Counted from the first letter of the stretch, positions 36,502 through 63,559 are shown. The stretch is DNA of 64,000 nucleotides from Pseudonocardia sp. (GCA_035540535.1 DATLGI010000138.1:6924-70923); one strand, 5' to 3'. Made by a program: numbers and translations. The notes: a model not told the origin generated them from the letters alone.

Positions 36502-36789
36502 GCGACGGGCGGATCCTGCTGACGGTGATCTCGCCGAGGCGCAGCTCGCCGAGTCACGGTGGTCGGTTGACTGCTCCGGTGCTGGTCAGAGCCGCTCGAG
36601 GTCGCGCCGTGGAACGGTGAGCCGCAGCATGCCGGCAACCCGGACGGGCCGGTCAGCCGCTTGGCACTTCGGGCGCGAAGGTGCCGGGCAGCCTGCGCCG
36701 GGGCTCGGCCAGCGTGAACCGTACGGGAACTGTCGGTGCTCGTCCCTACGCTGTGCTGGCGAGCCCGACCTGGCGCTGAAGGGTTGCTG

Positions 36790-38217: not shown

Positions 38218-38807
38218 GGACCCCGGAGGAGCACGCCGTCGCGAGCGCGATCATCGACCTGATGCGCGGCGTCGTCTACCGCGAGTCGCGGGAGGACGCC
38301 TGGAACACCGTGAACCGCCACGGCGCCGCTGTTCGGGATCACTTCGGCACCATCGGCGTCGATGTCGTCATCGACGACGCGGAGGGATACGCCTACCTGC
38401 GCAGCCAGGAGGAGAGCGAAGCTGCCGAGCCCCTGCCGCGGCTGGTCAGGCGGCGCAGCCTCACCTACCACGTCAGCCTCCTGCTCGTGCTGTTGCGCAA
38501 GCGACTCGTGGAGTTCGAGACCACCGGCAGCGAGGGCAAGCTCGTGCTGAGCCGGGACCAGATCGTCGAGATGCTGCGCGTGTTCCTGGCCGACTCCACG
38601 AACGAGGCCCGGGTGATCGATCGGGTCGACACCACTCTCAAGCAGGTGGCCGAGCTCGGCTTCCTCCGGCAGCTGCGTCGACAGCAGGATCAGTGGGAGG
38701 TACGGCGAATCCTGAAGGCGTACGTCGACGCGCAGCTGCTCGCGGACTACGCCGGCAAGCTCCGGGAGTACGCCGACGCCGTCCGCGGGGGGACGACCGA
38801 TGGGTGA
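38214..38807 (+). CDS. jetB: Wadjet JetB (DUF4194, MksE/EptB-like subunit)
   Basis: ATG at 38214 overlaps the jetA stop (ATGA). It is 197 aa and acidic. Position and size match JetB. Confidence 0.7.
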
Positions 38808-41800: not shown

Positions 41801-42204
41801 AGCGCCACCGTGACACCGACGAGGAGTGGGAGCACTACCGCGACTCCGACGGCAAGTCCGGCGGCCAGAAGGAGAAGCTCGCCTACACCATCCTGGCGGC
41901 CTCCTTGGCCTATCAGTTCGGCCTGGAGTGGGGCGTCGAGCGGTCACGGGACTTCCGGTTCGCTGTGATCGACGAGGCGTTCGGGCGTGGATCGGACGTG
42001 TCGACACGTTATGCCCTCGAACTGTTCGCCAAGCTCGGCCTACAACTGCTGATCGTCACGCCGCTGCAGAAGGTGCACGTGATCGAGTCCTACGTCCGAG
42101 CGATCGGTTTCGTCGACAACCCCACGGGGAGCTACTCGCGGCTCCAGTCGCTGACCATCGAGGAGTTCCACGCCCGTCGGGCCGGCATGGCCCCCGACGG
42201 ATGA
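38800..42204 (+). CDS. jetC: Wadjet JetC (SMC-like ATPase, MksB/EptC)
   Basis: ORF 38800..42204 has Walker [10 protein letters not shown], a long Arg/Glu/Ala/Leu-rich central region, the ABC signature [11 protein letters not shown] and Walker [14 protein letters not shown]. Confidence 0.9.
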
Positions 42205-50719: not shown

Positions 50720-52246
50720 TCATGCCGAGAACTGTTTGAGCAGCTCCCTGCGCATGATCTTGCCGGTGGACGTCTTGGGCAGATCGTCGACGAAGCGAAC
50801 GAGTCGGGGCCGCTTGTAAGCGGCCAGCGATCGGCCGGCGAACTCGATGAGCTCCTCGTCGGTGGCGGTCGCCCCTGGTGCGAGGACGACGTAGGCGCAG
50901 GCCAGCTCGCCCTTCACCGGGTCCGGCACCGGCCCGGCCGCGACCATCGCCACCGCCGGGTGCGCGGCCAGCACGCGCTCGATCTCGGCGGGGTAGACGT
51001 TGTAGCCGGCACTGTTGATCATGTCCTTGCGCCGGTCGACTACGAAGACGTGCCCGGTGTCGGACATCGTCGCGATGTCGCCGGTGTGCAGCCAGCCGTC
51101 CGGCTCGATCGTCTCCGCGGTGGCCTCGGGCCGATTGTGGTAGCCGAGCATCACCAGCGGGCCGCGCACCATCAGCTCGCCGGGCTCGCCGTACGGGGCG
51201 TCGCGGGTGACGTCGGCGAGATCGGCGATGCGCACCTGCAGCCCCGGCAGCGACACTCCGATCGACCCGAGCACGGGCGGGGCGTGCAGCGCGTGCGTGG
51301 TGCCCAGGCCGGCGATCTCGGTCATCCCCCACAGCTCGATCAGCGGGGCTCCGGAGCGCTCCTGCCAGCGCTGCATGGTCGAGACCGGCATCGTCTGCCC
51401 GCCGACGGTGCACCGGGTGAGGCTCGACAGGTCGGTCCCGGGCAGCGACGGGTCGGCCAGCATTGTCGCGTACATCGCCGGGACGCCCTCGAACATCGTC
51501 GCCCGGTGCTCCGCGATCAGCGTGAGCGCCTCGGCCGGGGCGAAGCGCTCCATCAGCACCACGGTGCCACCGACCATGAAGATCGAGTTGATGACGACGT
51601 TGCCGTAGACATGTGGCGCCGGCAGCGCGGTGACGACGACGTCGGCGGCGGTGCGGCCGTGCATCGTCGCGGTGTGGGCACAGTTGAGCAGCACCGCGCG
51701 GTGCGACTGCACGGCGCCCTTCGGGTGGCCGGTGGTCCCGGACGTGTAGCCGATCGTCGACGGCCCCGCCGGGTCGATCTGCACCTCGGGCACGGAGCCG
51801 TCCGAGCCCAGCAGCTCGGTGAACCCGACCGCTCCCTTCGGCGCGTCACCGAAGGCGACGACCGCGCACGGCCCGGGCAGGTCGCGGGCCAACTCGACCA
51901 CGCCCGCGGCCTGCTGGGCGCTGGTGAACACCGCGGCCGACCTGCAGTCGCGCAGCACGTACGCCAGTTCCTCGGGGGTGAGCATGACGTTGACCGGGTT
52001 GACGACCGCCCCGGCTTTGAGCGCGCCGTGGTAGGCGATGACCCATTCCCAGCGGTTCTGCGTGTACAGCGACACCGGCTGTCCCGGCCGAATCCCGCGG
52101 GCCGCCAGCCCGGCGGCGACGCGGTCGCTCTCCACGTCCAGCTCGCGGAAGGTCAGGGTACGGGCGGCGGTGACCAGCGCGGGCTTGTCCCCGAACCGCC
52201 GTGCGGCCGCCGGCAGGATCCCGGCAGGCGAGACGACGTCGTCCAT
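50720..52246 (-). CDS. AMP-dependent acyl-CoA synthetase/ligase
   Basis: Internal Met of ORF 50720..52285, preceded by a GAGGAGG RBS. It has YTSGTTGHPKG and GWLHTGD motifs. Confidence 0.88.
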   Translation of the reverse strand: MDDVVSPAGILPAAARRFGDKPALVTAARTLTFRELDVESDRVAAGLAARGIRPGQPVSLYTQNRWEWVIAYHGALKAGAVVNPVNVMLTPEELAYVLRDCRSAAVFTSAQQAAGVVELARDLPGPCAVVAFGDAPKGAVGFTELLGSDGSVPEVQIDPAGPSTIGYTSGTTGHPKGAVQSHRAVLLNCAHTATMHGRTAADVVVTALPAPHVYGNVVINSIFMVGGTVVLMERFAPAEALTLIAEHRATMFEGVPAMYATMLADPSLPGTDLSSLTRCTVGGQTMPVSTMQRWQERSGAPLIELWGMTEIAGLGTTHALHAPPVLGSIGVSLPGLQVRIADLADVTRDAPYGEPGELMVRGPLVMLGYHNRPEATAETIEPDGWLHTGDIATMSDTGHVFVVDRRKDMINSAGYNVYPAEIERVLAAHPAVAMVAAGPVPDPVKGELACAYVVLAPGATATDEELIEFAGRSLAAYKRPRLVRFVDDLPKTSTGKIMRRELLKQFSA

Positions 52247-52466
52247 GTGCACCTCCTCGACGCCTCCGCAGTGTCCGGTCCCCACGACGCGACGCCGCTA
52301 TCCAGCACGGACAAGGCGGTCGGGCAGTTTTGTCCGCACCGTCCATCGGCGAGAGTGGAAAGCCACGGCACTGTGACGTCCGCAACGCCGTGCGCCGGGG
52401 CCGTCCACCGCACTCCCTGGTGATCACGCCGGTAGGAGCCACGACCCCAGTTCAAGGAGGAACCTG

Positions 52467-52886
52467 ATGGCCGAAGTGCTGGCCGAGGGCTACAACGTCT
52501 TCGACACCGCCAAGTCCCCCAGCGGCACGATCAAGTACCTGTCCTCGCCCGCGGACGTGATCGGGCTGATCAAGTCCGGCAAGCTGAAGGACCACATCCT
52601 GCTCGTCCGCGGGGGGACGACGACGTTCCTCGCCCCGGCACTGTCGATGGGTGCGATCGGGGTGATCACGATGTCGGGCGCGCCCGAGTCGCACCTCGGG
52701 ATCCTGTCGCGGGAGTTCCAGACCCCGTGCGTGATGACGGCCTACCTGACGAGCAGCGACTCCCGCTACGAGGTCGGCAAGACCGGCGACAGCCACTTCG
52801 AAGAGATCGCGAAGGCCCTCGACGGCCGCCGGGTCCGGCTCGACTGCACCGACCACGAGGTCGGGCGCGTCGTCGCCGACGACTGA
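52467..52886 (+). CDS. stand-alone PEP-utilising-enzyme mobile (swivel/phosphohistidine) domain protein
   Basis: ORF 52467..52886 has ILLVRGGTTTFLAPALSMGAIGVITMSGAPESHLGILSREFQTPCVM, which matches the swivel-domain pattern with the conserved His (codon at 52692-52694). Confidence 0.7.
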   Translation: MAEVLAEGYNVFDTAKSPSGTIKYLSSPADVIGLIKSGKLKDHILLVRGGTTTFLAPALSMGAIGVITMSGAPESHLGILSREFQTPCVMTAYLTSSDSRYEVGKTGDSHFEEIAKALDGRRVRLDCTDHEVGRVVADD

Positions 52887-52920: not shown

Positions 52921-54354
52921 GTGACGACGACCGAGGGCAAGCGCGCCACCTACAAGCAGCGGTACGAGCAGGGTGACGACGGTCTGCGCTTCCAGGAGCT
53001 GACCTACACCGGCAACTTCGTCGGGATGGAGCCCGTCACGGACGGGATCAAGGGCGACCGGATGATGCGCGAGCGCGCCAAGAGCGGTGTGCTCGAGAAG
53101 GTGTCGAAGGAGGACGTCCTCCGCGACCAGTTCACGATCGACGAGCTCAACGACCTCAACAACTACCTGGCCTGGAACATCTGGGACGTGCTGGTCATGC
53201 GCGCCACCGAGGGCGTGAGCGGCATGATCCCCCGCCAGGAGTACGAGATCCTGGCCTTCATGCACGAGTTCTACCGCTGGCCGGAGATCCTGCGCATGGC
53301 CACCGACGAGGTCGGCGGCGGCCAGGGAGTCCTGGACATCGGCGCCACCGCCCGCCGGGAGATCGGCACCAAGGTCAACGCGGTGCACGACTGGTGCATC
53401 GGCGCCGTCGGGTTCGGCATGGGCCGCTGCGGCCTGCTCGCGCTGGAGGTGATCGGCCCGGACGATTACGTCGAGGAGTCCAACGAGATCCTCAAGTTCA
53501 TGCAGCGGATCCTGTGGGGCAAGCGCCAGGACGGCTACATCCTCAACTCCCAGGACAACTACCGCTGCCGCATCCATGAGGCCGACTTCCTCGAGCAGAT
53601 CACCGCGCAGCTCGAGCCGCTGGAAGCCGACAGCCCCAAGCACGGCGCGTTCACCCAGTTCAACGCCGCCGCGGAGCTGCTCTCGTTCCTCGACCACTAC
53701 GACTGCCGGCTCGGCCTCGGCGACACGGGGCCGTACGAGCTGCCGAACGGGCAGCTGCTGATCCTGCGCGACCTCTTCGTCAACGAGGAGGTGTTCCACT
53801 GGAGCGACGTCTGCGACGACGAGGGCCTGCCGCACTGCTACACCCTCGCGCTGACGATCGACCCGGAGAAGATGGCGCTGGCCGAGATCCGGGTGAACGA
53901 CATCTCCACCACCTTCACCCGGCCGAAGAACTACATCGAGGCCATCACCGGCGGTGCGGTGTTCGTCCGGGAGAAGTGGAACACCCCGATGGGCGAGGTG
54001 TACCCGGTCGCGATCGACGATTTGGGCCCGCACCTGGAGCGGGTGCAGAACGCGACGCTGAAGCTCTACGCGAAGACGGCCCGGATGAACCGGCGCGACC
54101 TCATCTGGAACGGCCAGTACGTCTACTACGTCGACATGATCCTCCCGCACCTGCGGCTGGCCGGCGCGTACGAGAAGGCGTGCACGGACTACCAGCTCTG
54201 GGAGGTCGACCAGCGCGTCGCCAACTACTACTACGACATCACCAAGCGCGGCTTCGCCCAGGAGACCGTGCCGCAGAAGATCTTCTCCGGCGCGGGTTAC
54301 CTGCCCTTCTCCGACAACGCCGACCGCCGCCGCTCGAAGTACCGCTGGCTGTAG
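52921..54354 (+). CDS. conserved-looking protein of unknown function (477 aa)
   Basis: ORF 52921..54354 has a GTG start with a GGAG RBS. Its composition is clearly coding (rich in W/Y/F/N/K/I, unlike shadow ORFs). I recognise no motif. Confidence 0.7.
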   Translation: MTTTEGKRATYKQRYEQGDDGLRFQELTYTGNFVGMEPVTDGIKGDRMMRERAKSGVLEKVSKEDVLRDQFTIDELNDLNNYLAWNIWDVLVMRATEGVSGMIPRQEYEILAFMHEFYRWPEILRMATDEVGGGQGVLDIGATARREIGTKVNAVHDWCIGAVGFGMGRCGLLALEVIGPDDYVEESNEILKFMQRILWGKRQDGYILNSQDNYRCRIHEADFLEQITAQLEPLEADSPKHGAFTQFNAAAELLSFLDHYDCRLGLGDTGPYELPNGQLLILRDLFVNEEVFHWSDVCDDEGLPHCYTLALTIDPEKMALAEIRVNDISTTFTRPKNYIEAITGGAVFVREKWNTPMGEVYPVAIDDLGPHLERVQNATLKLYAKTARMNRRDLIWNGQYVYYVDMILPHLRLAGAYEKACTDYQLWEVDQRVANYYYDITKRGFAQETVPQKIFSGAGYLPFSDNADRRRSKYRWL

Positions 54355-54422
54355 ACGCCGGACACCGACGGGCGGCGCGGCACCTCGCCGCGCCGCCCGT
54401 CCTCGTGCAGGAGGACTCCACC

Positions 54423-55043
54423 GTGACAGCGCTCTCCCTGAGCAGGACCGACTACGACGTGCTCAACGCCGTGGTCGTCAAGAAGATGGCCACCGCCGAC
54501 GCGGTGGTGGCGGCCTCGGGTGTGGACGCCGCGCAGGTCTCCGAGATCCTCGCCGCGCTCGAGGGCCGGGGCCTCCTCGTCGTCGCAGGCGACTCGGCGC
54601 TGCCCACGGACGAGGCTGAGCCGGTGCTGATGGAGGTGGCGGCCACCCGGTACTCAGGCGTCCGCGAGGACGCCGACATCGCCCGGCTCGTGGACCGCTT
54701 CGAGACGACCAACGCGCAGTTCCTCACGACGATGTCGTCCTGGCAGCAGATCGACAGCGGCGGCCGCAAGGTGGCCAACGACCACTCCGACCCCGAGTAC
54801 GACGGAAAGGTCATCGACCGGCTGAACAAGCTGGTGGCTCGCCTGACCCCGCTGTTGGACGCACTCGCCGGGCACGACGCGCGGTTCGGCCGCTACCCCG
54901 AACGCTTCGCCATCGCGCTGGCCGCCGTCGACGCCGGGGACCACGACCTGGTGTCGTCCCCGGTCCGCGACTCGGTGCACAACATCTGGTTCGAGTTCCA
55001 CGAGGATCTGCTACGGACCCTCGGCAAGGTCCGGACCGAATGA
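54423..55043 (+). CDS. protein of unknown function with N-terminal winged-helix-like segment (206 aa)
   Basis: GTG at 54423 in the frame of ORF 53976..55043, with an AGGAGG RBS upstream. The stop overlaps the next start (ATGA). Confidence 0.6.
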   Translation: MTALSLSRTDYDVLNAVVVKKMATADAVVAASGVDAAQVSEILAALEGRGLLVVAGDSALPTDEAEPVLMEVAATRYSGVREDADIARLVDRFETTNAQFLTTMSSWQQIDSGGRKVANDHSDPEYDGKVIDRLNKLVARLTPLLDALAGHDARFGRYPERFAIALAAVDAGDHDLVSSPVRDSVHNIWFEFHEDLLRTLGKVRTE

Positions 55044-57559
55044 GCAGCCCGAGCACGACGACGCCTGGCCCGGGCGACGTCGCCGATGGGGTGTTCACCC
55101 GCAGGTTCGCCGAGGCCGATCCCGCAGACGTGGGGTGGCTCGGTGGCAAGGGCGCGGGCCTGGCCCGCATGACTCAGCAGGGCCTGCGCGTGCCGCCCGG
55201 CTACGTCATCGGGACCGACGCCTGCCGTCGCTACCTCGCGGAGCGGGCGCTCCCCGCGGGACTCGACGACGAGGTGTTCGCCCGGCTGTCCGAGCTGGAG
55301 CGGGCCGCCGGCAAGACCTTCGGCGGCGGTCCGGTGCCGCTGCTGCTCTCGGTGCGGTCCGGCGCGCCGATCTCCATGCCCGGGATGATGGACACCATCC
55401 TCAACCTCGGACTGAATCGCACCGCTGCGATCGCGCTCGGGGAGGCGACGGGGGACGCGCGGTTCGTCGCCGACCTCGTCACCCGCTTCCACGCGATGTA
55501 CGCCGAGACCGTGCTGGACGCAACGGATCCCGGCGAGGGCATCGGCGAGCTGGTCGCGCAGGTCGGCGCGGGTGACGACCCGGGCGCCGTCTACGACCGA
55601 ATCTGGGACGCCTGCCAGCGGGCGCTGGCCGACGACACCGGCGATTCGGTGCCCGACGACCCACGGGAGCAGCTGCTGGGCGCGGTGGAGGCGGTGTTCC
55701 GCTCCTGGAACACCCGCCGAGCCCGCACCTACCGCGACCACCACAAGATCCCGCACGACCTCGGGACCGCCGTGGTCGTGCAGTCCATGGTGTTCGGCAA
55801 CCTCTCGGCGGACTCGGGCTCCGGTGTGGTGTTCACCCGCAACCCGGCGACCGGGGAGCCGGGCCTGTTCGGCGAGTACCTCGCGCACAGCCAGGGTGAG
55901 GACGTCGTCGCCGGGACCCGCACGCCCGATCCTGTCACCGAGGCCCTCGCGCCCGCGGTACTCGACGAGCTGCGCGTGACCTGCGCCGATCTCGAGCGAA
56001 GCCAGGGCGACGTCCTCGACATCGAGTTCACCGTCGAGCGGTCCGCGCTGTACTTCCTGCAGGTGCGCAGCGCAAAGCGCACGCCCGAAGCGGCGGTGCG
56101 AATCGCGGCCGACTTCCTCGCCGAGGGCAGTGTCGCGCCGTCGAAGGCGATACGGAACGTCTCGGCGGCCCAGGTGCGACAGGTGCAGCGGCCCGGGTTC
56201 GACCCCGACGAGGTCGAGAAGGCGCGGGCCGGCGGGCGACTGCTCACGAGGGGGATCGGAGCCTGCCCGGGTCAGGTCGGCGGCGCGCTGGTGCTCGACC
56301 CGGACCGGGCGAAGGCGGCCGCTGACGCCGGTCGGGACGTCATCCTCGCCCGTCCGGTCACGAGCCCCGCCGACCTGCACGGAATGATCGCCTCGCGCGG
56401 TATCGTCACGGCCACCGGTGGGTCGACGAGCCACGCCGCCGTCGTCGCGCGGGCGCTCGGCACAGCCTGCGTGGTCGGCGCCGGTGAGATCCGCGTCGAC
56501 GAGGCCGCTCGCGTGCTGACCGTCGGCGGGCGGACCCTGGCCGAGGGCGACGAGGTGTCCCTGGACGGAGCGACCGGCGAGCTGTTCGCCGGGCGCTTCG
56601 CGACGTCGACGCCGGCGGCCGCGACGGGGGCTCTGGCGGCGCTGCTGGGCATCGCCTCCCGCGCCAGCGCTTGCTCAGTGCTCAGCCGCGTCACCCTGCC
56701 CGGCGACGTCGAGCCCGCCCGCGAGGCCGGAGCCGACGGGCTGGTGACCGCGGTGGACGACGTACTGGCCGCCACCGGTCACCTCGACGGCCTCGTGGCG
56801 GGTCTGCTCGGCGCGAGCGCGGACGGGTTCGACGGTATCGCGGCAATGGTGGAGGCCGAGTTCACGCCGCTGCTGGCGGTCGCCGGCGACCTGGAGGTGG
56901 GCGTCCGGGCGATCGATCTCGTCGCCGACGAGGCGCGCGAGCTGCTCCAGCAGACGGCCATGACGACCCGGCACCCCGAGCTGTCGGTCCCACTGGGTCG
57001 CCCGGAGCTGGTGCGGGCACAGCTGGAGGGGCTGGCCCGGGCCGTGCGGGAGTCCGGGGGGCGCGCCCGCGTCCACCTCGCCCTGCGACACGTCAGCGAC
57101 CCGGCCGAGGCCCGCGCACTGCGCGCGCTCGCCGGCGAGGTCGGGTCAGCGGTCTCCATCGGGACTTATCTGACCAGCCCGCGGGCAGCCCACGGCGCCG
57201 TCGACATCGCGGCGGCCAGCGACGTCGTGTGGCTCGAGGTGCGCACGCTGCAGGCGGCGATGTTCGGCATCCCCGCGCGGCAGCTGCTCACCGCCGAACC
57301 GCTCGACGGCTACCTGCGGCGCGGGCTGCTCGGCTGCGACCCGCGCACCACGCTCGACCCCTCGGTGCAGCGCCTGCTTGCCGATGTCGCGGCGGCGGCC
57401 GACACCGCCGGGCGCCGGGTCGGGATGCGGCTGTCCGGGGAGGTGTCCGAGGCGGTCGCCGCGCAGCTGTACGCCCTGGGCTTCCGCCGCTTCGCCGTCG
57501 ACGCTGCGGAGACGCGCCCGGTGGTCCTCGCGCTCGGTAAAGCGGCTCTCGCGGCCTGA
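55040..57559 (+). CDS. pyruvate,phosphate dikinase-like protein (ATP-grasp + phosphohistidine domain; degenerate C-terminal domain)
   Basis: ORF 55040..57559 has GGKGAGLARM, LLLSVRSGAPISMPGMMDTILNLGLN, GEYLAHSQGEDVVAGTRTP and GGSTSHAAVVARALG. The C-terminal ~300 aa lack the PPDK catalytic motifs. Confidence 0.8.
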   Translation: MSSPSTTTPGPGDVADGVFTRRFAEADPADVGWLGGKGAGLARMTQQGLRVPPGYVIGTDACRRYLAERALPAGLDDEVFARLSELERAAGKTFGGGPVPLLLSVRSGAPISMPGMMDTILNLGLNRTAAIALGEATGDARFVADLVTRFHAMYAETVLDATDPGEGIGELVAQVGAGDDPGAVYDRIWDACQRALADDTGDSVPDDPREQLLGAVEAVFRSWNTRRARTYRDHHKIPHDLGTAVVVQSMVFGNLSADSGSGVVFTRNPATGEPGLFGEYLAHSQGEDVVAGTRTPDPVTEALAPAVLDELRVTCADLERSQGDVLDIEFTVERSALYFLQVRSAKRTPEAAVRIAADFLAEGSVAPSKAIRNVSAAQVRQVQRPGFDPDEVEKARAGGRLLTRGIGACPGQVGGALVLDPDRAKAAADAGRDVILARPVTSPADLHGMIASRGIVTATGGSTSHAAVVARALGTACVVGAGEIRVDEAARVLTVGGRTLAEGDEVSLDGATGELFAGRFATSTPAAATGALAALLGIASRASACSVLSRVTLPGDVEPAREAGADGLVTAVDDVLAATGHLDGLVAGLLGASADGFDGIAAMVEAEFTPLLAVAGDLEVGVRAIDLVADEARELLQQTAMTTRHPELSVPLGRPELVRAQLEGLARAVRESGGRARVHLALRHVSDPAEARALRALAGEVGSAVSIGTYLTSPRAAHGAVDIAAASDVVWLEVRTLQAAMFGIPARQLLTAEPLDGYLRRGLLGCDPRTTLDPSVQRLLADVAAAADTAGRRVGMRLSGEVSEAVAAQLYALGFRRFAVDAAETRPVVLALGKAALAA

Positions 57560-57615: not shown

Positions 57616-58341
57616 TCACACCAGCAGGCCCTCCCGCAGGCGGGCGAGCTCGTGGTCGGTGATCCCGCGCGAGTGGGCCCAGCCGGCAGCGCCCCCGTGG
57701 CGGGAGTCGAGCGCGGCGAGGAAGCCGGTGATGGTGTGCTCCTCGGCGTCGTAGACCTCGGGCGGCACCGTCGCCATGTGGGCGCTGTAGTGCGGCCAAC
57801 CGCGGAAGCGTTCGACGATCCGCGCCATGGCGGGTCCGCTGCGCAGGTAGTCGGCCACGATGTCGTCGTCGTCCACGCCGAGCAGGCGCAGCAGCAGCGC
57901 GGTCACCAGGCCGGTCCGGTCCTTGCCGGCCGCGCAGTGCACGAGCACCGGCCGGCCGGCCAGCGCGCACACGATCCGCACGACCGTCGCGACTTGCGAG
58001 GTCGGCGACCCGACGTGCATGAGGTAGAACGCCAAGCTCTGCTCGCGCGGCGGCAGGTCGCTCGCGGGGGCCTCGGACAGCGGTGCGTTCAGGTAGCAGA
58101 CCGGCGTGGCCGCGAGCGGCCCGCGCCCCTGCTCGACGGCCTCCGGGCCGCGGCGCAGGTCGACGACGAGCTCCAACCCGAGCTTCTCGACGAGGTAGGC
58201 GACGTCGTCGGCGGTCAACGCCTGCAGGGTGTCGCTGCGGAACAGCGCGCCGGACCGGACCTGCAGGTCCGGTCCGGCGCGGAGACCACCGAGATCACGG
58301 AAGTTGAAGGCGCCGCGGAGCCCGCTCACGGAATCGGTCAC
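57616..58341 (-). CDS. tyrosine-protein-phosphatase-like protein (Y_phosphatase3 family, CX5R)
   Basis: Lies in the frame of ORF 57616..58734 with GTG 58341 after a GAGGAG RBS (alternative GTG at 58398). It has NFRDLGG and the HCAAGKDRTG active-site loop. Confidence 0.8.
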   Translation of the reverse strand: MTDSVSGLRGAFNFRDLGGLRAGPDLQVRSGALFRSDTLQALTADDVAYLVEKLGLELVVDLRRGPEAVEQGRGPLAATPVCYLNAPLSEAPASDLPPREQSLAFYLMHVGSPTSQVATVVRIVCALAGRPVLVHCAAGKDRTGLVTALLLRLLGVDDDDIVADYLRSGPAMARIVERFRGWPHYSAHMATVPPEVYDAEEHTITGFLAALDSRHGGAAGWAHSRGITDHELARLREGLLV

Positions 58342-58411: not shown

Positions 58412-59383
58412 TCACGGGGCGCACAGCCGGCGGATGGCGGCCAGCAACTCGTCATCCGCGGTGGTTCGCGCGCCGGCGGCGACGCTCGTGGTGCCGGTGA
58501 CTCGAGCGGCTGCCGCGCGCCGGCGATCGCGCCGGACGGCGGCTGCCCGGGCGACGACGTCATCACCCGTGCCGTCGGACCCGTCGCACCCGCAGCCGCA
58601 TGCCGACGCCGGCGCGCCCTGCTGGTCGACGGCGGCAACCGGTACGGCGCACGCGCCGGTGGCGGGAAGGGCGGCGGCGTCCCCCAGCAGGTACGGGGCG
58701 ATCTCCTGCGGCCAGAGCGCGACGAACTCGGCACCGGCGGCGGTGAGCTCCTCCACGGAGTGCATGCCCCAGGCCACGCCGATGACCCGGATCCCGACCT
58801 CGAGCGCGTCCCGCACGTCGCCCGCGGTGTCGGTCACCAGCACGGTGCTGGAGCCGTCGAGGTCCGCCGGCCGGCCGGCCTCGTCGTAGTCCGCACTGCA
58901 GCGGCGGCCGAAGCCGCTGCCGGCGTCGGCGAGGAAGGCGCGCATGGCCGTGCGCTTGTCCGGGGCTGCGTCGCCGCCGAAGACGTGCGCGAAGCAGAAC
59001 GCGATCCCGTTCGACTCCAGGACGCGGCGGAGCACCTGCGTCGCGTTGGACGACATCACCGCGAGCGTGCAGTCGGCAGCGAGACGGCGCACGACGTCGC
59101 CCACGCCGGGGACCAGCGGCGGCGTGTACTCCTCGCGCAACAGGCGCAGGAACGCGTCCTTCACCTCGCCGGCCTGCGCCTCGTCGCGGCACAGCTTCGC
59201 GATCGAGGCGTAGACGTTGCCCTGGAACAGGTCGAAGTACTGTTCGGGGCGATCGACGCCGAGCCCGAACCGCTTGTTGATCTTCTCGAACACCTCCCAC
59301 GACGCCACGCGTGTCTGGACGAGGGTGCCGTCGAGGTCGAAGATCACTGCCCGGACCGGTGACCGGCCGGTGCCGGCGGTCAT
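58412..59383 (-). CDS. HAD family hydrolase with ~90-aa C-terminal extension
   Basis: Internal Met of ORF 58412..59530 overlaps the upstream stop (ATGA). It has the FDLDGTLV motif I. The tail is low-complexity Ala/Gly/Cys-rich and ends ADDELLAAIRRLCAP. Confidence 0.8.
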   Translation of the reverse strand: MTAGTGRSPVRAVIFDLDGTLVQTRVASWEVFEKINKRFGLGVDRPEQYFDLFQGNVYASIAKLCRDEAQAGEVKDAFLRLLREEYTPPLVPGVGDVVRRLAADCTLAVMSSNATQVLRRVLESNGIAFCFAHVFGGDAAPDKRTAMRAFLADAGSGFGRRCSADYDEAGRPADLDGSSTVLVTDTAGDVRDALEVGIRVIGVAWGMHSVEELTAAGAEFVALWPQEIAPYLLGDAAALPATGACAVPVAAVDQQGAPASACGCGCDGSDGTGDDVVARAAAVRRDRRRAAAARVTGTTSVAAGARTTADDELLAAIRRLCAP

Positions 59384-60384
59384 GCGCGTGCGGCGGCGTG
59401 CACCCGGTCGTAGGCGGTGCCGAGCTCGCCCAGGCCGATGAAGTCCATGCACTCGCCGTGGCCGACCTGCCCGTTCACCGTCCAGCGCAGCAGGCAGTTG
59501 TGCCCCACCGTCCCCGGCCAGGCCTGCCACGGGAACGTGGTGAGCGCAGTGCCCTCGAGCTCCCAGGTCCGGTCCGCCGAGTCCGTGACCGTCAGCTGGA
59601 TCGCCTCCGGGTAGAAGTCATGGCGGTATGTGGTGCCCCCGCCCGCCTTGAGGCCGTAGACCTTGCCGTGGTCGAGCACGTAGCCGTGGGTCATCGTCTG
59701 GGTCGAGGGTGCGTCCGGTCCGCCGTCGGTGGAGAAGTCGCAGATGACGTGGATCGCCAGGTCGGGGGAGACGTGGGCGTGCTGCCACGACAGCCGTGAG
59801 GTCTGGCGCTCGGCGCGGACCCCCCAGCTGTGGTCCATCGTCGACACGCAGTCGATCGGGGTTGTCGCGCCGCGCAGGACGATCTCGCCCTCGAAGCGGC
59901 CCGTCTGGTCGAAGTGCCCCGCGTAGGCGTGGCCCCAGGTCTTGTCCATGTCCCGCCCGGCGGCCATCGGGTCCATCTCCGGGTCGTTGATGTCGTAGGG
60001 CTCCATCAGCGCCGAGTAGCGGAAGTGCAGCTCCAGGCCGGCGGCGGGATCGGAGTAGTCGACGTCCCACACCTTGTTGGGCTCGGCGCATCGGACCTTC
60101 AGCCCGTTCGCCAGCGCGTAGTCGAGCAGGTTCGACGGCTGCGGCACCACGAGGTGCTGCCACGCGTCCCAGTAGTCCGCGGCCCACGGCATGGTCACCC
60201 GCCGGGAGTTGACCGACACCGTCGAGCCGACCACTCCGATCGGCTCGCGGAACAGTCCGTAGACACCGATGTTCATCGGCCGGTCGGCGTCCTGGCCGGC
60301 GTACAGGCCGAAGTAGTTGGTCTCGGCCCAGAGCGGGTCGTCTGTCGTCGGGGGGTGGAACTGCGCGTCCTCGGGACGGATCAC
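59380..60384 (-). CDS. hypothetical protein (possibly AttH/CrtC-like beta-rich fold)
   Basis: Lies in the frame of ORF 59380..60504 with GTG 60384 after a GAGGAGG RBS. The composition is coding-like (W/Y/H/D rich). The family assignment is uncertain. Confidence 0.6.
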   Translation of the reverse strand: MIRPEDAQFHPPTTDDPLWAETNYFGLYAGQDADRPMNIGVYGLFREPIGVVGSTVSVNSRRVTMPWAADYWDAWQHLVVPQPSNLLDYALANGLKVRCAEPNKVWDVDYSDPAAGLELHFRYSALMEPYDINDPEMDPMAAGRDMDKTWGHAYAGHFDQTGRFEGEIVLRGATTPIDCVSTMDHSWGVRAERQTSRLSWQHAHVSPDLAIHVICDFSTDGGPDAPSTQTMTHGYVLDHGKVYGLKAGGGTTYRHDFYPEAIQLTVTDSADRTWELEGTALTTFPWQAWPGTVGHNCLLRWTVNGQVGHGECMDFIGLGELGTAYDRVHAAARA

Positions 60385-60571: not shown

Positions 60572-60865
60572 ATGCAGCTGGCCAAGGTGCTCGGCCAGGT
60601 CGTCTCGACGGTCAAGGAACCCGGCCTGGACCGGTTCACGCTGCTCCTGGTGCAGGAGGCCTCCGGGGCTGACCCCGAGCGGACGAGCGGTGCCGCATAC
60701 GTCGCGGTCGACCTCGTCGGCGCCGGCGTCGGTGAGGTGGTTCTCGTCGCCACGGGCGGCGCGGCCCGGGTCGCGGCCGGCGCCGACGCCCCGACCGACC
60801 GAGCCGTCGTCGCCATCGCCGACACGGTGGTGCGGTCCGGCTCGGTCGCCTACCGCAAGTCATGA
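60572..60865 (+). CDS. bacterial microcompartment vertex protein (EutN/CcmL family, BMV)
   Basis: ORF 60572..60865 reads [15 protein letters not shown] ... [23 protein letters not shown] ... [11 protein letters not shown]. Confidence 0.9.
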
Positions 60866-61251
60866 CCACCGCAGCGGCTCTGCCCACTCATTCCGCCGTC
60901 GGACGAGACCACCTGGAGGACGACATGGCTCCCACCACAGCAGGCGCGAACGGGGGGACCACCATGCGCGGTGCCCTCGGCCTGATCGAGACGAAGGGCC
61001 TCGTCGGGGCCATCGAGGCCGCGGACGCGATGGTGAAGGCGGCCAACGTGCAGGTCGTCGGGCACCGTGAGATCGGTGGCGGCCTCGTGACGGTGATGGT
61101 GCGAGGCGACGTCGGGGCCGTCAAGGCCGCGACCGACGCCGGCGCGGTGGCCGCGGGCAAGGCCGGCGAGGTCGTGTCGGTACACGTCATCCCGCGCCCG
61201 CACGACGAGACCGAGGGCATCCTCGCCGTCCTCACCCGCCCGAAGGGCTGA
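60862..61251 (+). CDS. BMC-H shell protein (PduA/EutM/CcmK-type BMC domain) with N-terminal extension
   Basis: ORF 60862..61251 overlaps the BMV stop (ATGA). It has [30 protein letters not shown] ... [19 protein letters not shown] ... SVHVIPRPH. Confidence 0.92.
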
Positions 61252-61336
61252 ACCGATACCGCCCCGTCCGGGACGGCGTCGCGGCGCCGACCTCCGGGCG
61301 GGCACCCGGCCACCGGAGTCCGAACCGAGGTGAGGA

Positions 61337-62737
61337 ATGACCACACTCGTCGAACCAGGGCTGGATGCCGACCTCGCCGCGCTCGCCGACGTGCGAGCCA
61401 AGGCTCGTGCCGCCCGCCGAGCCTTCGAGGCGCTGGAAGGCGCGGACCAGGAGACGCTGGACCGTTACGTCCGCGCGATGGCGCTGGCCGGCACCAAGGC
61501 CGCCGAGGAGCTCGCCCGGCTGGCCGTGGACGAGACCGGATACGGCGTCTACGAGCACAAGATCTACAAGAACCGGTACAACACGGGTTTCGTCGCCAGG
61601 TGGATGCTGGAGCGCCGCGCCGTCGGTGTGCTCTGGGTGGACGACGCCGCTCGCGTCACCGCCGTCGGCACCCCGATGGGAGTGATCGCCGGCATCATCC
61701 CGGTCACCAACCCGACGTCGACCGCACTGTTCAAGAGCCTGGCCGCCGTGAAGTCGGGCAACGCGATCGTGCACGCCCCGCATCCACGGGCGGCTCGGTG
61801 CACGCTCCGAACGGCGGAGATCATGGCCGACGCCCTGGTGTCCGCCGGTGCCCCGGAGGGCCTGGTGTCCTGTCTGGTCGAGCCGTCGTTGGCGTCGACG
61901 CAGGAGCTGATGCGCAGGCCGGAGGTCGCACTGGTGCTCGCCACGGGCGGGCCCGGCATGGTGCGCGCGGCGTACTCGAGCGGGAAGCCGACCATCGCGG
62001 TCGGGGCGGGAAACGTGCCCGCCTACGTCGGCGCCAGCGTTCCGGACGCGGCCGAGGCCGCCGAAATGATCATCACGTCGAAGTCGTTCGACAACGGAAC
62101 GGCGTGTGTGGCCGAGCAGTCCGTCGTCGTCGTCGACGGCGTGGCGCCGGCCTTCCTCGCCGCGTTCGAGGCGAAGGGCGCGTACTGCCTCAACGCACCG
62201 CAGCAGGCGGCGCTCGTCCGGGTGCTGTTCGACGAGCGGGGCGCGCTGCGTCCGGCGTCGGTCGGGCAGACCGCGGTGCGGCTGGCCGAGCTCGCCGGTT
62301 TCACCGTGCCCTCGACGACGCGGGTCCTGGCAGCGGAGCTCGACGCCGTCGGCCTGGAGACGCCGCTCTCACGGGAGATCCTCGGCCCGGTCCTGTCCGT
62401 GTACCGCGTCCGGGATGCGGCGGCCGGTCTCGCGCGCTGCCGCGAGGTCCTGGCGCTGGACGGCGAAGGCCACACCGCCGCCGTGCACGCCGGCGACCCC
62501 GAGGAGATCGCACCGTTCGGCGCCCTGCCCGCCGGCCGGATCGTGATCAACACGCCGGCTCTGTTCGGCGGCATGGGCTACTCCACCGAGGTCGACCCCT
62601 CGTTCCAGCTCGGCACCGGCACGTGGAGCGGCTCGATCTGCTCGGACAACGTCACGCCGCTGCACCTGATCAACATCAAGCGGATCGCCCATGAGGTGCG
62701 GCCCTGGCGAACCGTCTACGACCCGGTGGAGCTCTAG
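61337..62737 (+). CDS. acylating (CoA-dependent) aldehyde dehydrogenase, EutE/PduP-like
   Basis: ORF 61337..62737 has IIPVTNPTST and the FDNGTACVAEQS catalytic Cys region. Confidence 0.88.
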   Translation: MTTLVEPGLDADLAALADVRAKARAARRAFEALEGADQETLDRYVRAMALAGTKAAEELARLAVDETGYGVYEHKIYKNRYNTGFVARWMLERRAVGVLWVDDAARVTAVGTPMGVIAGIIPVTNPTSTALFKSLAAVKSGNAIVHAPHPRAARCTLRTAEIMADALVSAGAPEGLVSCLVEPSLASTQELMRRPEVALVLATGGPGMVRAAYSSGKPTIAVGAGNVPAYVGASVPDAAEAAEMIITSKSFDNGTACVAEQSVVVVDGVAPAFLAAFEAKGAYCLNAPQQAALVRVLFDERGALRPASVGQTAVRLAELAGFTVPSTTRVLAAELDAVGLETPLSREILGPVLSVYRVRDAAAGLARCREVLALDGEGHTAAVHAGDPEEIAPFGALPAGRIVINTPALFGGMGYSTEVDPSFQLGTGTWSGSICSDNVTPLHLINIKRIAHEVRPWRTVYDPVEL

Positions 62738-63559
62738 GTGATGGCGCTGGCCTGCGACCCGCGGGAGCTGCTCGCGGCGGCGTCCGCCCGGATGGGTGCC
62801 GAGCCCGTGCTGCCGGCCGGGCCGCTGCACGATGTCCGCGTCGGAGTCGACCTGGGTACCGCGAGCTGCGTCCTCGTCGTCCTCGACGCCGACGGCGCGC
62901 CCGTATGGCTCGACGCGCACCCGTCCGGGGCGTTGCGCGACGGCGTGGTCGTCGATTTCGCCCGCGCCATCGACACGGTGCGTCGGCTGCGCGAGGCCGC
63001 GGAGACCGCGCTCGGCGTCGAGCTGCGGCGCACCGCGACCGCCTACCCGCCGTGCATCCCGGCGGAGGACGCCCGGGCCTGCACCTACGTCTGCGAGTCG
63101 GCGGGCTTCGCCGACGTCGTCCTCGTCGACGAGGTGACCGCCGCGCAGCGGACACTCGAGGTGGGCGACGGCGTCGTCGTCGACGTCGGCGGTGGTTCGA
63201 CCGGCGTCGGGGTGTTCCGCGACGGTCGCCTCGTTCAGCTCGACGACCGCCCCGGCGGCGGGCACCACCTCGATCTCGTCCTGGCTGGGGCGCTGCGCAT
63301 CCCGCTGGACGAGGCCGAACCCTGGAAGCGCGCACATCCCGCTGACGCGTTGCCCATCCTGGTGCCCGGCCTGCAACGCATCGCCGAGAACGTGCGTGCC
63401 CTGACCCGAGGCGCCGACGACCTGCCGCTGCACCTCGCCGGCGGCGCCCTCATGATCGCCGGCGCGGGTGACGTGCTGGCCTCCTACCTGGAGCGACCTG
63501 TCGTGACCTATCCGCACGCCCTGCTGATCACCCCCCTCGGCATCGCGAGGTCGGCATGA
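62738..63559 (+). CDS. eutJ: EutJ-like actin/Hsp70-fold protein
   Basis: ORF 62738..63559 has VGVDLGTAS and VVDVGGGSTGV phosphate-binding motifs. Confidence 0.85.
   Translation: MMALACDPRELLAAASARMGAEPVLPAGPLHDVRVGVDLGTASCVLVVLDADGAPVWLDAHPSGALRDGVVVDFARAIDTVRRLREAAETALGVELRRTATAYPPCIPAEDARACTYVCESAGFADVVLVDEVTAAQRTLEVGDGVVVDVGGGSTGVGVFRDGRLVQLDDRPGGGHHLDLVLAGALRIPLDEAEPWKRAHPADALPILVPGLQRIAENVRALTRGADDLPLHLAGGALMIAGAGDVLASYLERPVVTYPHALLITPLGIARSA

What the first reader, a model, noticed from the sequence alone, without database searches (positions are those of the whole stretch)
56642..57559. The PPDK-like protein lacks the PEP/pyruvate catalytic motifs in its C-terminal domain
In canonical PPDK the C-terminal TIM barrel carries GIGLCRTEHMF, LDPPLHEF, FSFGTNDLTQ and the catalytic Cys in GICGE. 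The aligned positions here read GADGLVTAVDDVL, VGVRAIDLVADEA, VWLEVRTLQAAMFG and VGMRLSGE. The Arg/Glu/His, Asn-Asp and Cys residues are therefore all replaced.

The N-terminal and central domains are well conserved. The protein probably still forms a phosphohistidine from ATP but cannot do the pyruvate/PEP half-reaction, which implies a different acceptor or a partner protein.
Basis: partly seen in the sequence, partly recalled or inferred. Interest (0 to 1): 0.65.

Follow-up and report, generated by a model that had tools for sequence, protein, structure and literature searches.

The report
PPDK relative with dead barrel
This gene encodes a relative of pyruvate phosphate dikinase that keeps its ATP and phospho-histidine machinery but has a catalytically dead last domain, and it always sits with three partner genes next to a bacterial microcompartment of unknown function, so it probably passes phosphate to a different target.

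Summary
The 839-aa protein (55040-57559, +) aligns colinearly with canonical PPDK. Its ATP-grasp and swivel-histidine residues are intact. In the C-terminal TIM barrel, R561, E745, N768, D769 and C831 become A571, T712, R735, T736 and R797, and the NPMLGxRGCR loop is deleted. Only the R617 equivalent (R623) survives.

The barrel still folds in the AF2 model. Across the wider family it has no conserved polar residue and about half the sequence identity of the other two domains. I read it as a relic, not a retuned active site.

The gene is the last of a four-gene cassette:
- a free-standing swivel-His protein,
- a very conserved 477-aa protein of an undescribed family,
- a wHTH-like protein,
- this PPDK-like protein.

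The cassette adjoins a MIC1-type microcompartment locus in 9 of 9 actinobacterial loci. A Rhodococcus plasmid fuses the first three genes into one protein beside a barrel-less short PPDK.

Best reading: it is an ATP-driven phosphohistidine donor for a multi-component dikinase or phosphorelay. The nearest characterised relatives are M. tuberculosis VadK and the HpeHI/CreHI/PpsAB dikinases. The substrate is unknown.

The parts
55040..57559 (+). PPDK-like protein, 839 aa. Its ATG overlaps the stop of the upstream gene (ATGA).
   Evidence: More than 120 homologues at 63-85% identity, all with PF01326 and PF00391 only.
55097..56224 (+). ATP-grasp nucleotide-binding domain (aa 20-395). Catalytic residues intact.
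   Evidence: K37, R106, D327, E329, Q341 and R343 are invariant. Mean pairwise identity 51% in the broad family.
56225..56599 (+). Central swivel phosphohistidine domain (aa 396-520). The His465 codon is at 56432-56434.
   Evidence: GG(S/A)xSHAAV is invariant. Mean pairwise identity 55%.
56672..57556 (+). C-terminal TIM barrel (aa 545-839), a degenerate copy of the PEP/pyruvate domain. This is the finding itself.
52467..52886 (+). Free-standing swivel (PEP-utilizers mobile) domain protein, 139 aa, with putative phospho-acceptor His76 in GAPESHLGILSRE.
   Evidence: The motif is invariant in orthologues, and the SH(L/A) core with the His is kept in all paralogues. 70-86% identical across the loci compared.
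52921..54354 (+). 477-aa protein of an undescribed family ('unk477'), the most conserved protein of the locus.
54370..54398 (+). Perfect 12-bp G+C hairpin between unk477 and the next gene.
   Evidence: A hairpin is present at the same place in 6 other loci, with an unrelated stem sequence in L091.
54423..55043 (+). 206-aa protein with an N-terminal TrmB/MarR-like winged helix. GTG start, GGAGGA ribosome-binding site. Translationally coupled to the PPDK-like gene.
   Evidence: It forms the C-terminal part of the pROB02 fusion protein.
50720..52285 (-). Acyl-CoA ligase (AMP-binding), a recurrent neighbour of the cassette.
   Evidence: 61% identical in pRB98 and 52% in Paraburkholderia. Paralogues lie in the pA cluster and the Nocardioides cluster.
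57616..58341 (-). Y_phosphatase3-family phosphatase. The likely start is the GTG at 58341; the open frame runs to 58734.
   Evidence: Adjacent in related loci. One homologue is fused to a short PPDK-like protein (P0361).
58412..59383 (-). HAD-family phosphatase. Likely start is the ATG at 59383.
59380..60384 (-). DUF7064/DUF7065 (Rv3169-family) protein. Likely start is the GTG at 60384.
60572..63559 (+). Start of the MIC1-type microcompartment operon: BMC-P (60572-60865), BMC-H (60862-61251), aldehyde dehydrogenase (61337-62737) and an EutJ-like protein (62738-63559). The operon runs off the window.
   Evidence: The MIC1 assignment rests on gene content and on Pseudonocardia and Nakamurella MIC1 entries in PMC8217296 and PMC4207490.

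Best explanation
The gene encodes a paralogue of pyruvate phosphate dikinase that has stopped being a PPDK.

What the domains look like:
- The ATP-grasp domain and the swivelling phosphohistidine domain (His465) are intact.
- The C-terminal TIM barrel keeps the fold of the PEP/pyruvate domain but has lost the Mg2+ ligands, the pyruvate-binding Arg, the Asn and the proton-donor Cys. It has not gained any polar residue that is conserved across the family.
- I therefore read the barrel as a structural relic. By analogy with the PPDK dimer interface and swivel docking face (from my own knowledge), it probably serves dimerisation or docking.

Proposed role: the protein is the ATP-driven phosphoryl-donor subunit of a multi-protein dikinase or phosphorelay. 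The other parts are encoded just upstream: a free-standing swivel-His protein, a 477-aa protein of an unknown family, and a wHTH-like protein translationally coupled to it.

Proposed steps:
1. ATP phosphorylates His465, releasing AMP.
2. The phosphoryl group passes to the upstream module, either directly or via His76 of the free swivel protein.
3. The 477-aa protein presents a small-molecule acceptor.
4. The phosphorylated compound is oxidised by the alcohol and aldehyde dehydrogenases of the adjoining MIC1 microcompartment.
5. The neighbouring HAD and Y_phosphatase3 enzymes remove the phosphate. This follows the logic of the Cre and Hpe pathways.

What is shown here: loss of the PEP/pyruvate site, retention of the donor half, and the conserved partnership, gene fusions and microcompartment linkage. 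What is inferred: autophosphorylation, the direction and route of transfer, the small-molecule nature of the acceptor, and the role of the barrel.
For: Dead site with a live donor half:
- PF02896 is below threshold.
- The C-domain query finds only 88 proteins among 1.84 billion representatives, none a canonical PPDK.

Relic rather than new site:
- In 15 diverse members the barrel has only G567, A668, G814 and L830 invariant.
- The clade-specific R683, H684, Y710, R715, R735 and R797 are not kept in the other clade.
- Mean pairwise identity is 28.5% for the barrel against 51% and 55% for the other two domains. Canonical PPDKs give 59/58/59%.
- Barrel dN is about 1.2-2 times that of the ATP-grasp domain, with omega still below 1.
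- The fold is retained.

The barrel is dispensable: relatives of 532-579 aa without it sit beside paralogous swivel plus unk477-like genes in R. opacus pROB02, R. pyridinivorans pA, Gordonia terrae and Nocardioides.

Partnership:
- The order swivel, unk477, wHTH, PPDK-like is kept in 9 actinobacterial loci, in a Rhodospirillaceae MAG and on a Paraburkholderia plasmid where the PPDK-like protein is only 40-42% identical.
- The first three are fused in that order in a 793-aa pROB02 protein.
- A short PPDK-like protein is fused to Y_phosphatase3 (P0361).
- The His of the free swivel protein is invariant.

Precedents:
- VadK autophosphorylates on the equivalent His (PMC13400623).
- HpeHI, CreHI and PpsAB are split dikinases followed by oxidation or carboxylation and a HAD-type phosphatase (PMC12167813, PMC9618137).
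Against: - No biochemistry was done here.
- The protein has its own swivel His, so the purpose of a second, free-standing swivel protein is unexplained. Swivel-to-swivel transfer has no precedent that I know of.
- The 477-aa protein has no recognisable fold or ligand site. Its AF2 model has pLDDT 60, and Foldseek, PDB profile and Pfam searches find nothing.
- Within the actinobacterial clade the barrel carries about 20 invariant charged residues at the catalytic face, including R623, R683/H684, R735 and R797. They could form a clade-specific anion site.
- R623 (the R617 equivalent) is kept in 13 of 15 members, so some phosphate contact at the barrel may persist.
- VadK is reported to act on enzymes, not small molecules.
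- The Paraburkholderia cassette has no microcompartment genes within 14 kb.
Confidence: 0.6

Rival explanations
1. Regulatory histidine kinase of the VadK type. The protein autophosphorylates and then modifies or binds enzymes to tune flux, for example the 477-aa protein, the aldehyde dehydrogenase or other microcompartment cargo. Y_phosphatase3 would be the opposing protein phosphatase. No small molecule is phosphorylated.
For: - VadK is the only characterised PPDK derivative without a working C-domain. It interacts with methylcitrate-cycle enzymes (PMC13400623).
- The protein passes the NCBIfam model NF004531, a 534-position profile (511 bits against a 456-bit cut-off). From memory, that model represents the Rv1127c-type short PPDK.
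- Y_phosphatase3 belongs to a protein-tyrosine-phosphatase-like superfamily and is once fused to a short PPDK-like protein.
- A wHTH-like protein is translationally coupled to it.
Against: - The same cassette type recurs in catabolic clusters whose layout matches the Cre and Hpe pathways, where phosphorylation is a chemical step. These contain a P450 with ferredoxin and reductase, ADH and AldDh, or a biotin carboxylase, plus a phosphatase.
- A HAD phosphatase of the kind used as HpeD is adjacent.
- The wHTH-like protein is a domain of the fused enzyme in pROB02, not a separate regulator.
- The locus has its own PucR-type regulator.
Confidence: 0.2
2. The barrel is a re-specialised active site, at least in the actinobacterial clade. 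It binds a different anionic acceptor through R623, R683/H684, R715, R735 and R797, and receives the phosphoryl group from His465 without Mg2+.
For: - About 20 charged or aromatic residues are invariant among 32 actinobacterial members. Several replace canonical catalytic positions with Arg: N768 becomes R735 and C831 becomes R797.
- They lie at the C-terminal ends of strands 3 to 7 of the modelled barrel.
- The barrel is under purifying selection, with omega 0.27-0.69.
Against: - These residues are not conserved in the sister clade (L002, L003, Paraburkholderia, P0283, P0285, P0286, P0291), which carries the same cassette.
- The barrel evolves faster than the rest of the protein.
- Barrel-less relatives keep the same partners.
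- The 32 sequences are 63-85% identical overall, so many invariant columns are expected from limited divergence.
Confidence: 0.15
3. It is an ordinary PPDK whose catalytic residues sit at shifted positions, or a decaying pseudogene.
For: - Public annotation calls every homologue 'pyruvate, phosphate dikinase'.
- The overall fold matches PPDK.
Against: - The profile-profile and pairwise alignments are colinear, with no shifted Arg/Glu/Asn-Asp/Cys set.
- There is no conserved Cys in the domain.
- TIGR01828 scores 557 bits against a cut-off of 843.
- Against a pseudogene: the reading frame is intact in all eight sequences translated (no stop codons) and full-length in nearly all of the >120 listed homologues, omega is below 1, and synteny is conserved.
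Confidence: 0.03

Closest known systems
Canonical pyruvate phosphate dikinase (C. symbiosum 1KBL/1DIK, maize 1VBG)
   Same: It has the same three-domain order and fold (Foldseek TM 0.76 over 887 columns). The ATP-grasp and swivel domains match at E 1e-129 with all nucleotide-site residues and the catalytic His kept.
   Different: The PEP/pyruvate site is destroyed: R561, E745, N768, D769 and C831 are replaced and the NPMLGxRGCR loop is deleted. The barrel is only about 20% identical to canonical barrels. It fails TIGR01828 and PF02896. Its genomic context is a four-gene cassette beside a microcompartment.
VadK (Rv1127c) of Mycobacterium tuberculosis, a PPDK-derived autophosphorylating histidine kinase (EMBO Rep 2026, PMC13400623)
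   Same: Both derive from PPDK, keep the ATP-grasp and catalytic His, and cannot carry out the pyruvate/PEP half-reaction. This protein passes the NCBIfam model NF004531.
   Different: VadK is 490 aa with the barrel deleted, whereas here the barrel is kept as a degenerate domain. VadK is linked to methylcitrate-cycle genes, not to a swivel/unk477/wHTH cassette or a microcompartment. I could not obtain the VadK sequence, so orthology is untested.
Two-component small-molecule dikinases HpeHI, CreHI and PpsAB, and rifampin phosphotransferase
   Same: In both, the ATP-grasp component is separate from an acceptor component that carries a swivel His, and AMP-forming phosphorylation of a small molecule starts a catabolic pathway. 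Neighbours follow the same logic (ADH, AldDh, P450 or biotin carboxylase, then a phosphatase).
   Different: The ATP component here is PPDK-type and carries its own swivel His plus a dead barrel. The acceptor side is split into three proteins. The 477-aa protein shows no detectable similarity to HpeH or to the rifampin-binding domain.
MIC1 bacterial microcompartment locus (Axen 2014, Sutter 2021)
   Same: The adjacent genes match the published MIC1 content: BMC-P, BMC-H, AldDh without an encapsulation peptide, MreB/EutJ-like protein, BMC-T(dp), Ldh-like and Zn-ADH dehydrogenases, a hydrolase and a phosphatase.
   Different: The published descriptions say MIC1 lacks a signature enzyme. The main texts of both papers and the supplementary files of Sutter 2021 hold no occurrence of 'dikinase'. 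The linkage reported here appears undescribed in the papers I could search.

Membership tests
Pyruvate phosphate dikinase (EC 2.7.9.1) | N-terminal ATP-grasp with the nucleotide/Pi-site residues (K22, R92, D321, E323, Q335, R337) | tested here: met
   K37, R106, D327, E329, Q341 and R343 align with them and are invariant in the family. The residue roles are from my knowledge of the C. symbiosum literature.
Pyruvate phosphate dikinase (EC 2.7.9.1) | Central swivel domain with the catalytic His455 | tested here: met
   H465 lies in GGSTSHAAVVAR.
Pyruvate phosphate dikinase (EC 2.7.9.1) | C-terminal PEP/pyruvate TIM barrel with R561, R617, E745, N768, D769 and C831 | tested here: not met
   Only R617 (R623) is kept. 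The others are A571, T712, R735, T736 and R797. PF02896 scores 19 bits, below 22.8. TIGR01828 scores 557, below 843.
VadK-type PPDK-derived histidine kinase | ATP-grasp plus catalytic His retained and no functional PEP/pyruvate domain | tested here: met
   NF004531 scores 511 bits, above its 456-bit cut-off.
VadK-type PPDK-derived histidine kinase | Truncation after the swivel domain (about 490 aa) | tested here: not met
   The protein is 839 aa with a folded barrel. Barrel-less relatives of 532-579 aa exist in other clusters.
VadK-type PPDK-derived histidine kinase | ATP- and Mg2+-dependent autophosphorylation, and interaction with methylcitrate-cycle enzymes | not testable with these tools
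   This needs biochemistry. No prpC/prpD-type genes were seen in the part of the window I annotated (about 29-64 kb); the first ~29 kb was not annotated.
VadK-type PPDK-derived histidine kinase | Orthology to Rv1127c by phylogeny | not tested
It was not among the 120 listed hits.
Two-component small-molecule dikinases (HpeHI/CreHI/PpsAB) | Separate ATP-grasp component and swivel-His acceptor component encoded together | tested here: met
   Conserved cassette and fusion.
Two-component small-molecule dikinases (HpeHI/CreHI/PpsAB) | Acceptor component homologous to HpeH/PpsA or the RPH substrate-binding domain | tested here: not met
   Neither the single sequence nor the profile of unk477 matches RPH or any PDB chain. 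There is no Pfam match. The AF2 model is too weak to test fold similarity.
Two-component small-molecule dikinases (HpeHI/CreHI/PpsAB) | AMP-forming phosphorylation of a small molecule | not testable with these tools
   This needs an enzyme assay.
MIC1 microcompartment locus | BMC-P, BMC-H, BMC-T(dp), AldDh without an encapsulation peptide, MreB/EutJ-like protein, Ldh-like and Zn-ADH, hydrolase, phosphatase; found in Actinobacteria | tested here: met
   In the window: BMC-P, BMC-H, AldDh, EutJ-like, HAD and Y_phosphatase3. The rest of the set is seen in syntenic loci. Pseudonocardia and Nakamurella are listed as MIC1 in PMC8217296. Absence of an encapsulation peptide on the AldDh was not checked here.

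The most novel reading that the evidence does not exclude
The four-gene cassette is a new class of multi-component dikinase.
- A PPDK-derived donor with a fossil barrel feeds one or both ATP phosphoryl groups through two separate swivel-histidine domains.
- The acceptor is bound by a protein of a novel, extremely conserved family (unk477).
- This system would be the long-missing signature (substrate-activating) enzyme of the MIC1 metabolosome, which would then be a microcompartment that processes a phosphorylated aldehyde.
Probability: 0.3. Interest if true: 0.85.

Novelty: new variant of a known kind. Interest (0 to 1): 0.68.

Why it matters
1. Annotation. Every homologue seen here is labelled 'pyruvate, phosphate dikinase'. 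That label is almost certainly wrong. It would put a false PEP-pyruvate link into metabolic models of Pseudonocardia, Amycolatopsis, Nakamurella, Rhodococcus and related genera.

2. Evolution. This protein shows a stage that the truncated VadK does not: a PPDK that has lost its second active site but still carries the domain.

3. An open question becomes testable. MIC1 microcompartments have been listed since 2014 as lacking a signature enzyme. A cassette found beside them in 9 of 9 actinobacterial loci, containing the most conserved protein of the locus plus a phosphoryl donor and two phosphatases, is a concrete candidate. It can be tested with four recombinant proteins.

4. Reach. Paralogous cassettes in P450 and biotin-carboxylase clusters suggest a wider, uncharacterised family of 'phosphorylate, transform, dephosphorylate' catabolic pathways.

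Tried and rejected
- **Genome scan.** It was useless for synteny statistics. I reused it as the canonical control set, and it happened to yield two distant family members (L002, L003).
- **Structure of the 477-aa protein.** The AF2 model had mean pLDDT 60. Foldseek against PDB found nothing at E ≤ 0.001. phmmer and a 19-sequence profile against PDB found nothing. Pfam and NCBIfam found nothing. No fold or function could be assigned.
- **Missing records.** P0051 was not on record for a context look-up. The Cre pathway paper (Du 2016, PMC4813557) is not held, so Cre details rest on memory and on citations in PMC9618137 and PMC12167813.
- **MarK (PMC12624787).** I checked it as a possible relative of a weak Novosphingobium hit. 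It belongs to the unrelated UPF0261 family.
- **ACI microcompartment type.** I considered it from memory and rejected it, because ACI stands for Acidobacteria.
- **dN/dS.** dS is compressed by the extreme GC3 bias, so only the between-domain comparison is used, not absolute omega values.
- **NJ tree.** It has no bootstrap support, and the placement of the pROB02 short PPDK is unreliable. I use it only for monophyly of the degenerate-barrel family.
- **Upstream window genes (29-50 kb).** Pfam annotation gave no pathway clue.
- **Promoter/terminator scan of the cassette.** It found nothing above shuffled expectation.
Full report
**The gene and the observation**

The finding lies in the ORF at 55040-57559 (+), 839 aa, in a window of about 72% G+C. 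Coordinates 56642-57559 correspond to residues 535-839.

The N-terminal two thirds are clearly PPDK:
- phmmer against PDB aligns residues 22-568 with C. symbiosum PPDK 7-557 at E 1e-129. The remainder gives only a 0.8-bit stretch.
- Pfam reports PPDK_N and the PEP-utilizers mobile domain but no PEP-utilizers_C. The C-domain alone reaches 19 bits against a 22.8-bit cut-off.
- NCBIfam's full-length PPDK model TIGR01828 fails (557 against 843 bits). The 534-position model NF004531 passes (511 against 456 bits). From memory, that model represents the short Rv1127c type. This probably explains why homologues are publicly named 'pyruvate, phosphate dikinase'.

**A proper alignment**

I aligned 32 family members (A1). 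From other fetched loci I built a control alignment of 40 canonical PPDKs.

| Canonical residue (C. symbiosum) | Residue here |
|---|---|
| R561 | A571 |
| E of RTEH | D573 |
| H of RTEH | D574 |
| R617 | R623 (retained) |
| NPMLGxRGCR loop | deleted |
| E745 | T712 |
| N768 | R735 |
| D769 | T736 |
| C831 | R797 |

The E745, N768 and D769 equivalences are also visible directly in the PDB alignment, with C. symbiosum numbering. There are no shifted copies of these residues. The two cysteines of the domain (C545, C766) are poorly conserved and lie far from strand 7. The one correction is that a canonical phosphate-binding Arg survives.

**Is it still a barrel, and is it still a site?**

The fold is kept:
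- AF2 with the family alignment gives mean pLDDT 82.9, and eight beta-alpha units in residues 546-838.
- Foldseek matches whole PPDK structures (1KBL, TM 0.76). The C-domain matches the Enzyme I and PpsA PEP-binding domains (TM 0.6-0.72 normalised to the target).
- The C-domain profile alone still recognises the canonical barrel (hhalign probability 87%, E 4e-6; reversed control E 0.32).

The sequence has drifted far from its parent:
- A phmmer search with the C-domain over 1.84 billion representative proteins finds only 88 hits. All are C-terminal parts or fragments of roughly 830-aa proteins of this kind, and none is a canonical PPDK.

Fifteen diverse full-length members (A3, 38-65% identical to the window protein) separate the domains sharply:
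- The invariant columns include K37, R106, D327, E329, Q341, R343 and H465, the equivalents of K22, R92, D321, E323, Q335, R337 and H455.
- In the barrel only G567, A668, G814 and L830 are invariant. R623 is kept in 13 of 15.
- The charged residues that are invariant within the actinobacterial clade (R683, H684, Y710, R715, R735, R797) are replaced in the sister clade.

Rates point the same way:
- Mean pairwise identity is 51% (ATP-grasp), 55% (swivel) and 28.5% (barrel). A comparable sample of canonical PPDKs gives 59, 58 and 59%.
- Barrel dN is roughly 1.2-2 times that of the ATP-grasp domain, while omega stays below 1. Absolute omega values are unreliable at this GC3.

I conclude that the barrel is a maintained fold under relaxed constraint, with no family-wide active site.

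**Genomic context**

The gene is the last of four co-oriented genes:
1. 52467-52886: a 139-aa free-standing PEP-utilizers swivel domain, with His76 in GAPESHLGILSRE.
2. 52921-54354: a 477-aa protein with no Pfam, NCBIfam or PDB match ('unk477').
3. 54423-55043: a 206-aa protein with an N-terminal TrmB/MarR-like winged helix. Its stop overlaps the PPDK-like ATG (ATGA).
4. 55040-57559: the PPDK-like gene.

Downstream on the other strand lie a Y_phosphatase3 phosphatase, a HAD phosphatase and a DUF7064/7065 protein. After them comes a divergent operon starting with BMC-P, BMC-H, an aldehyde dehydrogenase and an EutJ-like protein.

Context look-ups for homologues from Amycolatopsis, Pseudonocardia, Actinomycetospora, Nakamurella and metagenomes all show the same cassette, and the same phosphatase/HAD/DUF7064 trio. 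The R. oxybenzonivorans plasmid pRB98 and a Kineosporiaceae MAG have the cassette and the microcompartment genes too, though there the trio is absent or only partly seen within the stretch examined. The same microcompartment operon continues with BMC-T(dp), an Ldh-like and a Zn-ADH dehydrogenase and a PucR-type regulator. That makes 9 of 9 actinobacterial loci with enough flanking sequence.

This gene content is that of the MIC1 locus type of Axen 2014 and Sutter 2021. Those papers describe MIC1 as lacking a signature enzyme. [quoted passage not shown]

**Evidence that the cassette proteins work together**

- In a Rhodospirillaceae MAG (L002) and on a Paraburkholderia plasmid (L087) the PPDK-like protein is only 40-42% identical. 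The order swivel, unk477, wHTH, PPDK-like is still intact, with unk477 at 66-70% and the swivel protein at 71% identity.
- unk477 is the most conserved protein of the locus: 77-93% identical across actinobacterial genera.
- On R. opacus B4 plasmid pROB02 a 793-aa 'PEP-utilizing enzyme' is a fusion, in the same order, of a swivel domain, an unk477-like region (36% identical) and a TrmB-like winged helix. A Y_phosphatase3 gene follows immediately, and a 570-aa PPDK-like protein without a barrel lies a few genes away.
- Barrel-less PPDK-like proteins of 532-579 aa also sit beside swivel plus unk477-like pairs in R. pyridinivorans pA (with biotin-carboxylase genes), in Gordonia terrae and in Nocardioides. 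The latter two clusters carry a P450, ferredoxin, reductase, AldDh and Zn-ADH, plus Y_phosphatase3 or DUF7064.
- One short homologue is fused to Y_phosphatase3, and several are fused to ferredoxin domains.
- The His of the free swivel protein is invariant in all orthologues and paralogues.
- An unbootstrapped NJ tree of the ATP-grasp plus swivel region places all degenerate-barrel proteins in one clade, apart from canonical PPDKs.

**What it most likely does**

Two bodies of published work frame the mechanism.
- M. tuberculosis Rv1127c (VadK) is a truncated PPDK. It autophosphorylates on the equivalent His with ATP and Mg2+, and it acts through interaction with methylcitrate-cycle enzymes (PMC13400623).
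- HpeHI, CreHI and PpsAB are split dikinases. An ATP-grasp component loads a swivel His on a second component, which phosphorylates a small molecule. The phosphorylated compound is then carboxylated or oxidised and finally dephosphorylated; in the Hpe pathway the phosphatase is HAD-type (PMC12167813, PMC9618137).

The gene sets around the paralogous cassettes reproduce that logic. I therefore favour the following model (confidence about 0.6). The PPDK-like protein is the ATP-driven phosphohistidine donor of a multi-component dikinase. Its acceptor side is the swivel/unk477/wHTH unit. Its product is handled by the MIC1 dehydrogenases and the two phosphatases. The barrel serves only as scaffold or docking surface.

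What is shown here:
- loss of the PEP/pyruvate site;
- integrity of the donor half;
- the partnership and the gene fusions;
- the microcompartment linkage.

What is inferred:
- autophosphorylation and the route of transfer;
- that the acceptor is a small molecule;
- the role of the barrel.

The main unexplained point is why two swivel-His domains are needed.

**Rivals**

- A VadK-like regulatory kinase acting on proteins (about 0.2).
- A clade-specific re-specialised anion site in the barrel (about 0.15).
- A true PPDK or a pseudogene (about 0.03). The alignments, the intact frames translated together with the full-length homologues, and omega below 1 contradict this.

**Novelty**

PPDK-derived non-PPDK kinases and split dikinases are known, so the kind is not new. 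Several features appear undescribed in the literature I could search:
- retention of a fossil barrel;
- the second free swivel protein;
- the unk477 family;
- the fixed association with MIC1.

I rate the finding a new variant of a known kind, with interest 0.68.

Noticed in passing
window 54370-54398 (between 54354 and 54423); same position in L001, L082, L085, L090, L091, L092: A perfect 12-bp G+C hairpin (MFE -43.9 kcal/mol, z -4.85) sits between unk477 and the wHTH gene. All six other loci checked have a 10-17 bp hairpin in the same gap, with an unrelated stem sequence in L091. The structure, not the sequence, is conserved. It may be an intra-operon terminator or an mRNA 3'-end stabiliser that sets the ratio of swivel plus unk477 to wHTH plus PPDK-like.
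   Followed up: partly
window 52921-54354: unk477 is far more conserved than its neighbours: 77-93% identical across actinobacterial genera and 66-70% to Proteobacteria. Invariant residues across distant paralogues include Y108, R169, R263, Y272, R283 and W294. The gene lies in the lowest-G+C stretch of the window (0.676). No Pfam, NCBIfam, PDB or Foldseek match was found.
   Followed up: partly
window 36736-42204: A DUF3375 protein (36736-38217) is followed by a 1134-aa SbcC/SMC-like ATPase (38800-42204). From memory this resembles the JetA and JetC parts of a Wadjet/MksBEFG-type anti-plasmid system. The small gene between them and the gene after them were not examined.
   Followed up: no
P0361; P0334, P0336, P0355, P0365, P0367: Barrel-less PPDK-like proteins occur fused to a Y_phosphatase3 domain (789 aa), or to C-terminal ferredoxin domains (about 600 aa). 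This points to kinase-phosphatase coupling and to a link with P450 electron transfer.
   Followed up: no
L088 (Methylibium petroleiphilum PM1 plasmid RPME01, 480-495 kb): A cassette variant (DUF7064, unk477-like, swivel, wHTH-like, PucR-type regulator, no PPDK-like gene nearby) lies directly beside a B12-dependent mutase, MeaB, an AMP-ligase and a TPP enzyme. From memory these are the 2-hydroxyisobutyrate genes (hcmAB/hcl) of the MTBE pathway. It is a weak lead to the substrate class.
   Followed up: no
L090 4411-7255: In a Pseudonocardia thermophila-like contig, LutABC-type lactate-utilisation genes (CCG, LUD, LUD) sit immediately upstream of the cassette. This is another weak substrate lead (lactate or lactaldehyde).
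   Followed up: no
all homologues: All named homologues, with or without the barrel, carry PPDK-type names: almost all 'pyruvate, phosphate dikinase', a few 'PEP/pyruvate-binding domain-containing protein' or 'phosphate kinase'. This is probably through NCBIfam NF004531, which this protein passes. It is likely a systematic misannotation.
   Followed up: partly
L001 19314-20558, L090 19065-20354, L091 20057-21280 versus L082 19436-20359, L083 19862-20812: The Ldh-like dehydrogenase of the MIC1 operon is called at 407-429 aa in some loci and 307-316 aa in others. This could be a roughly 100-aa N-terminal extension (a possible encapsulation peptide) or inconsistent start calls.
   Followed up: no
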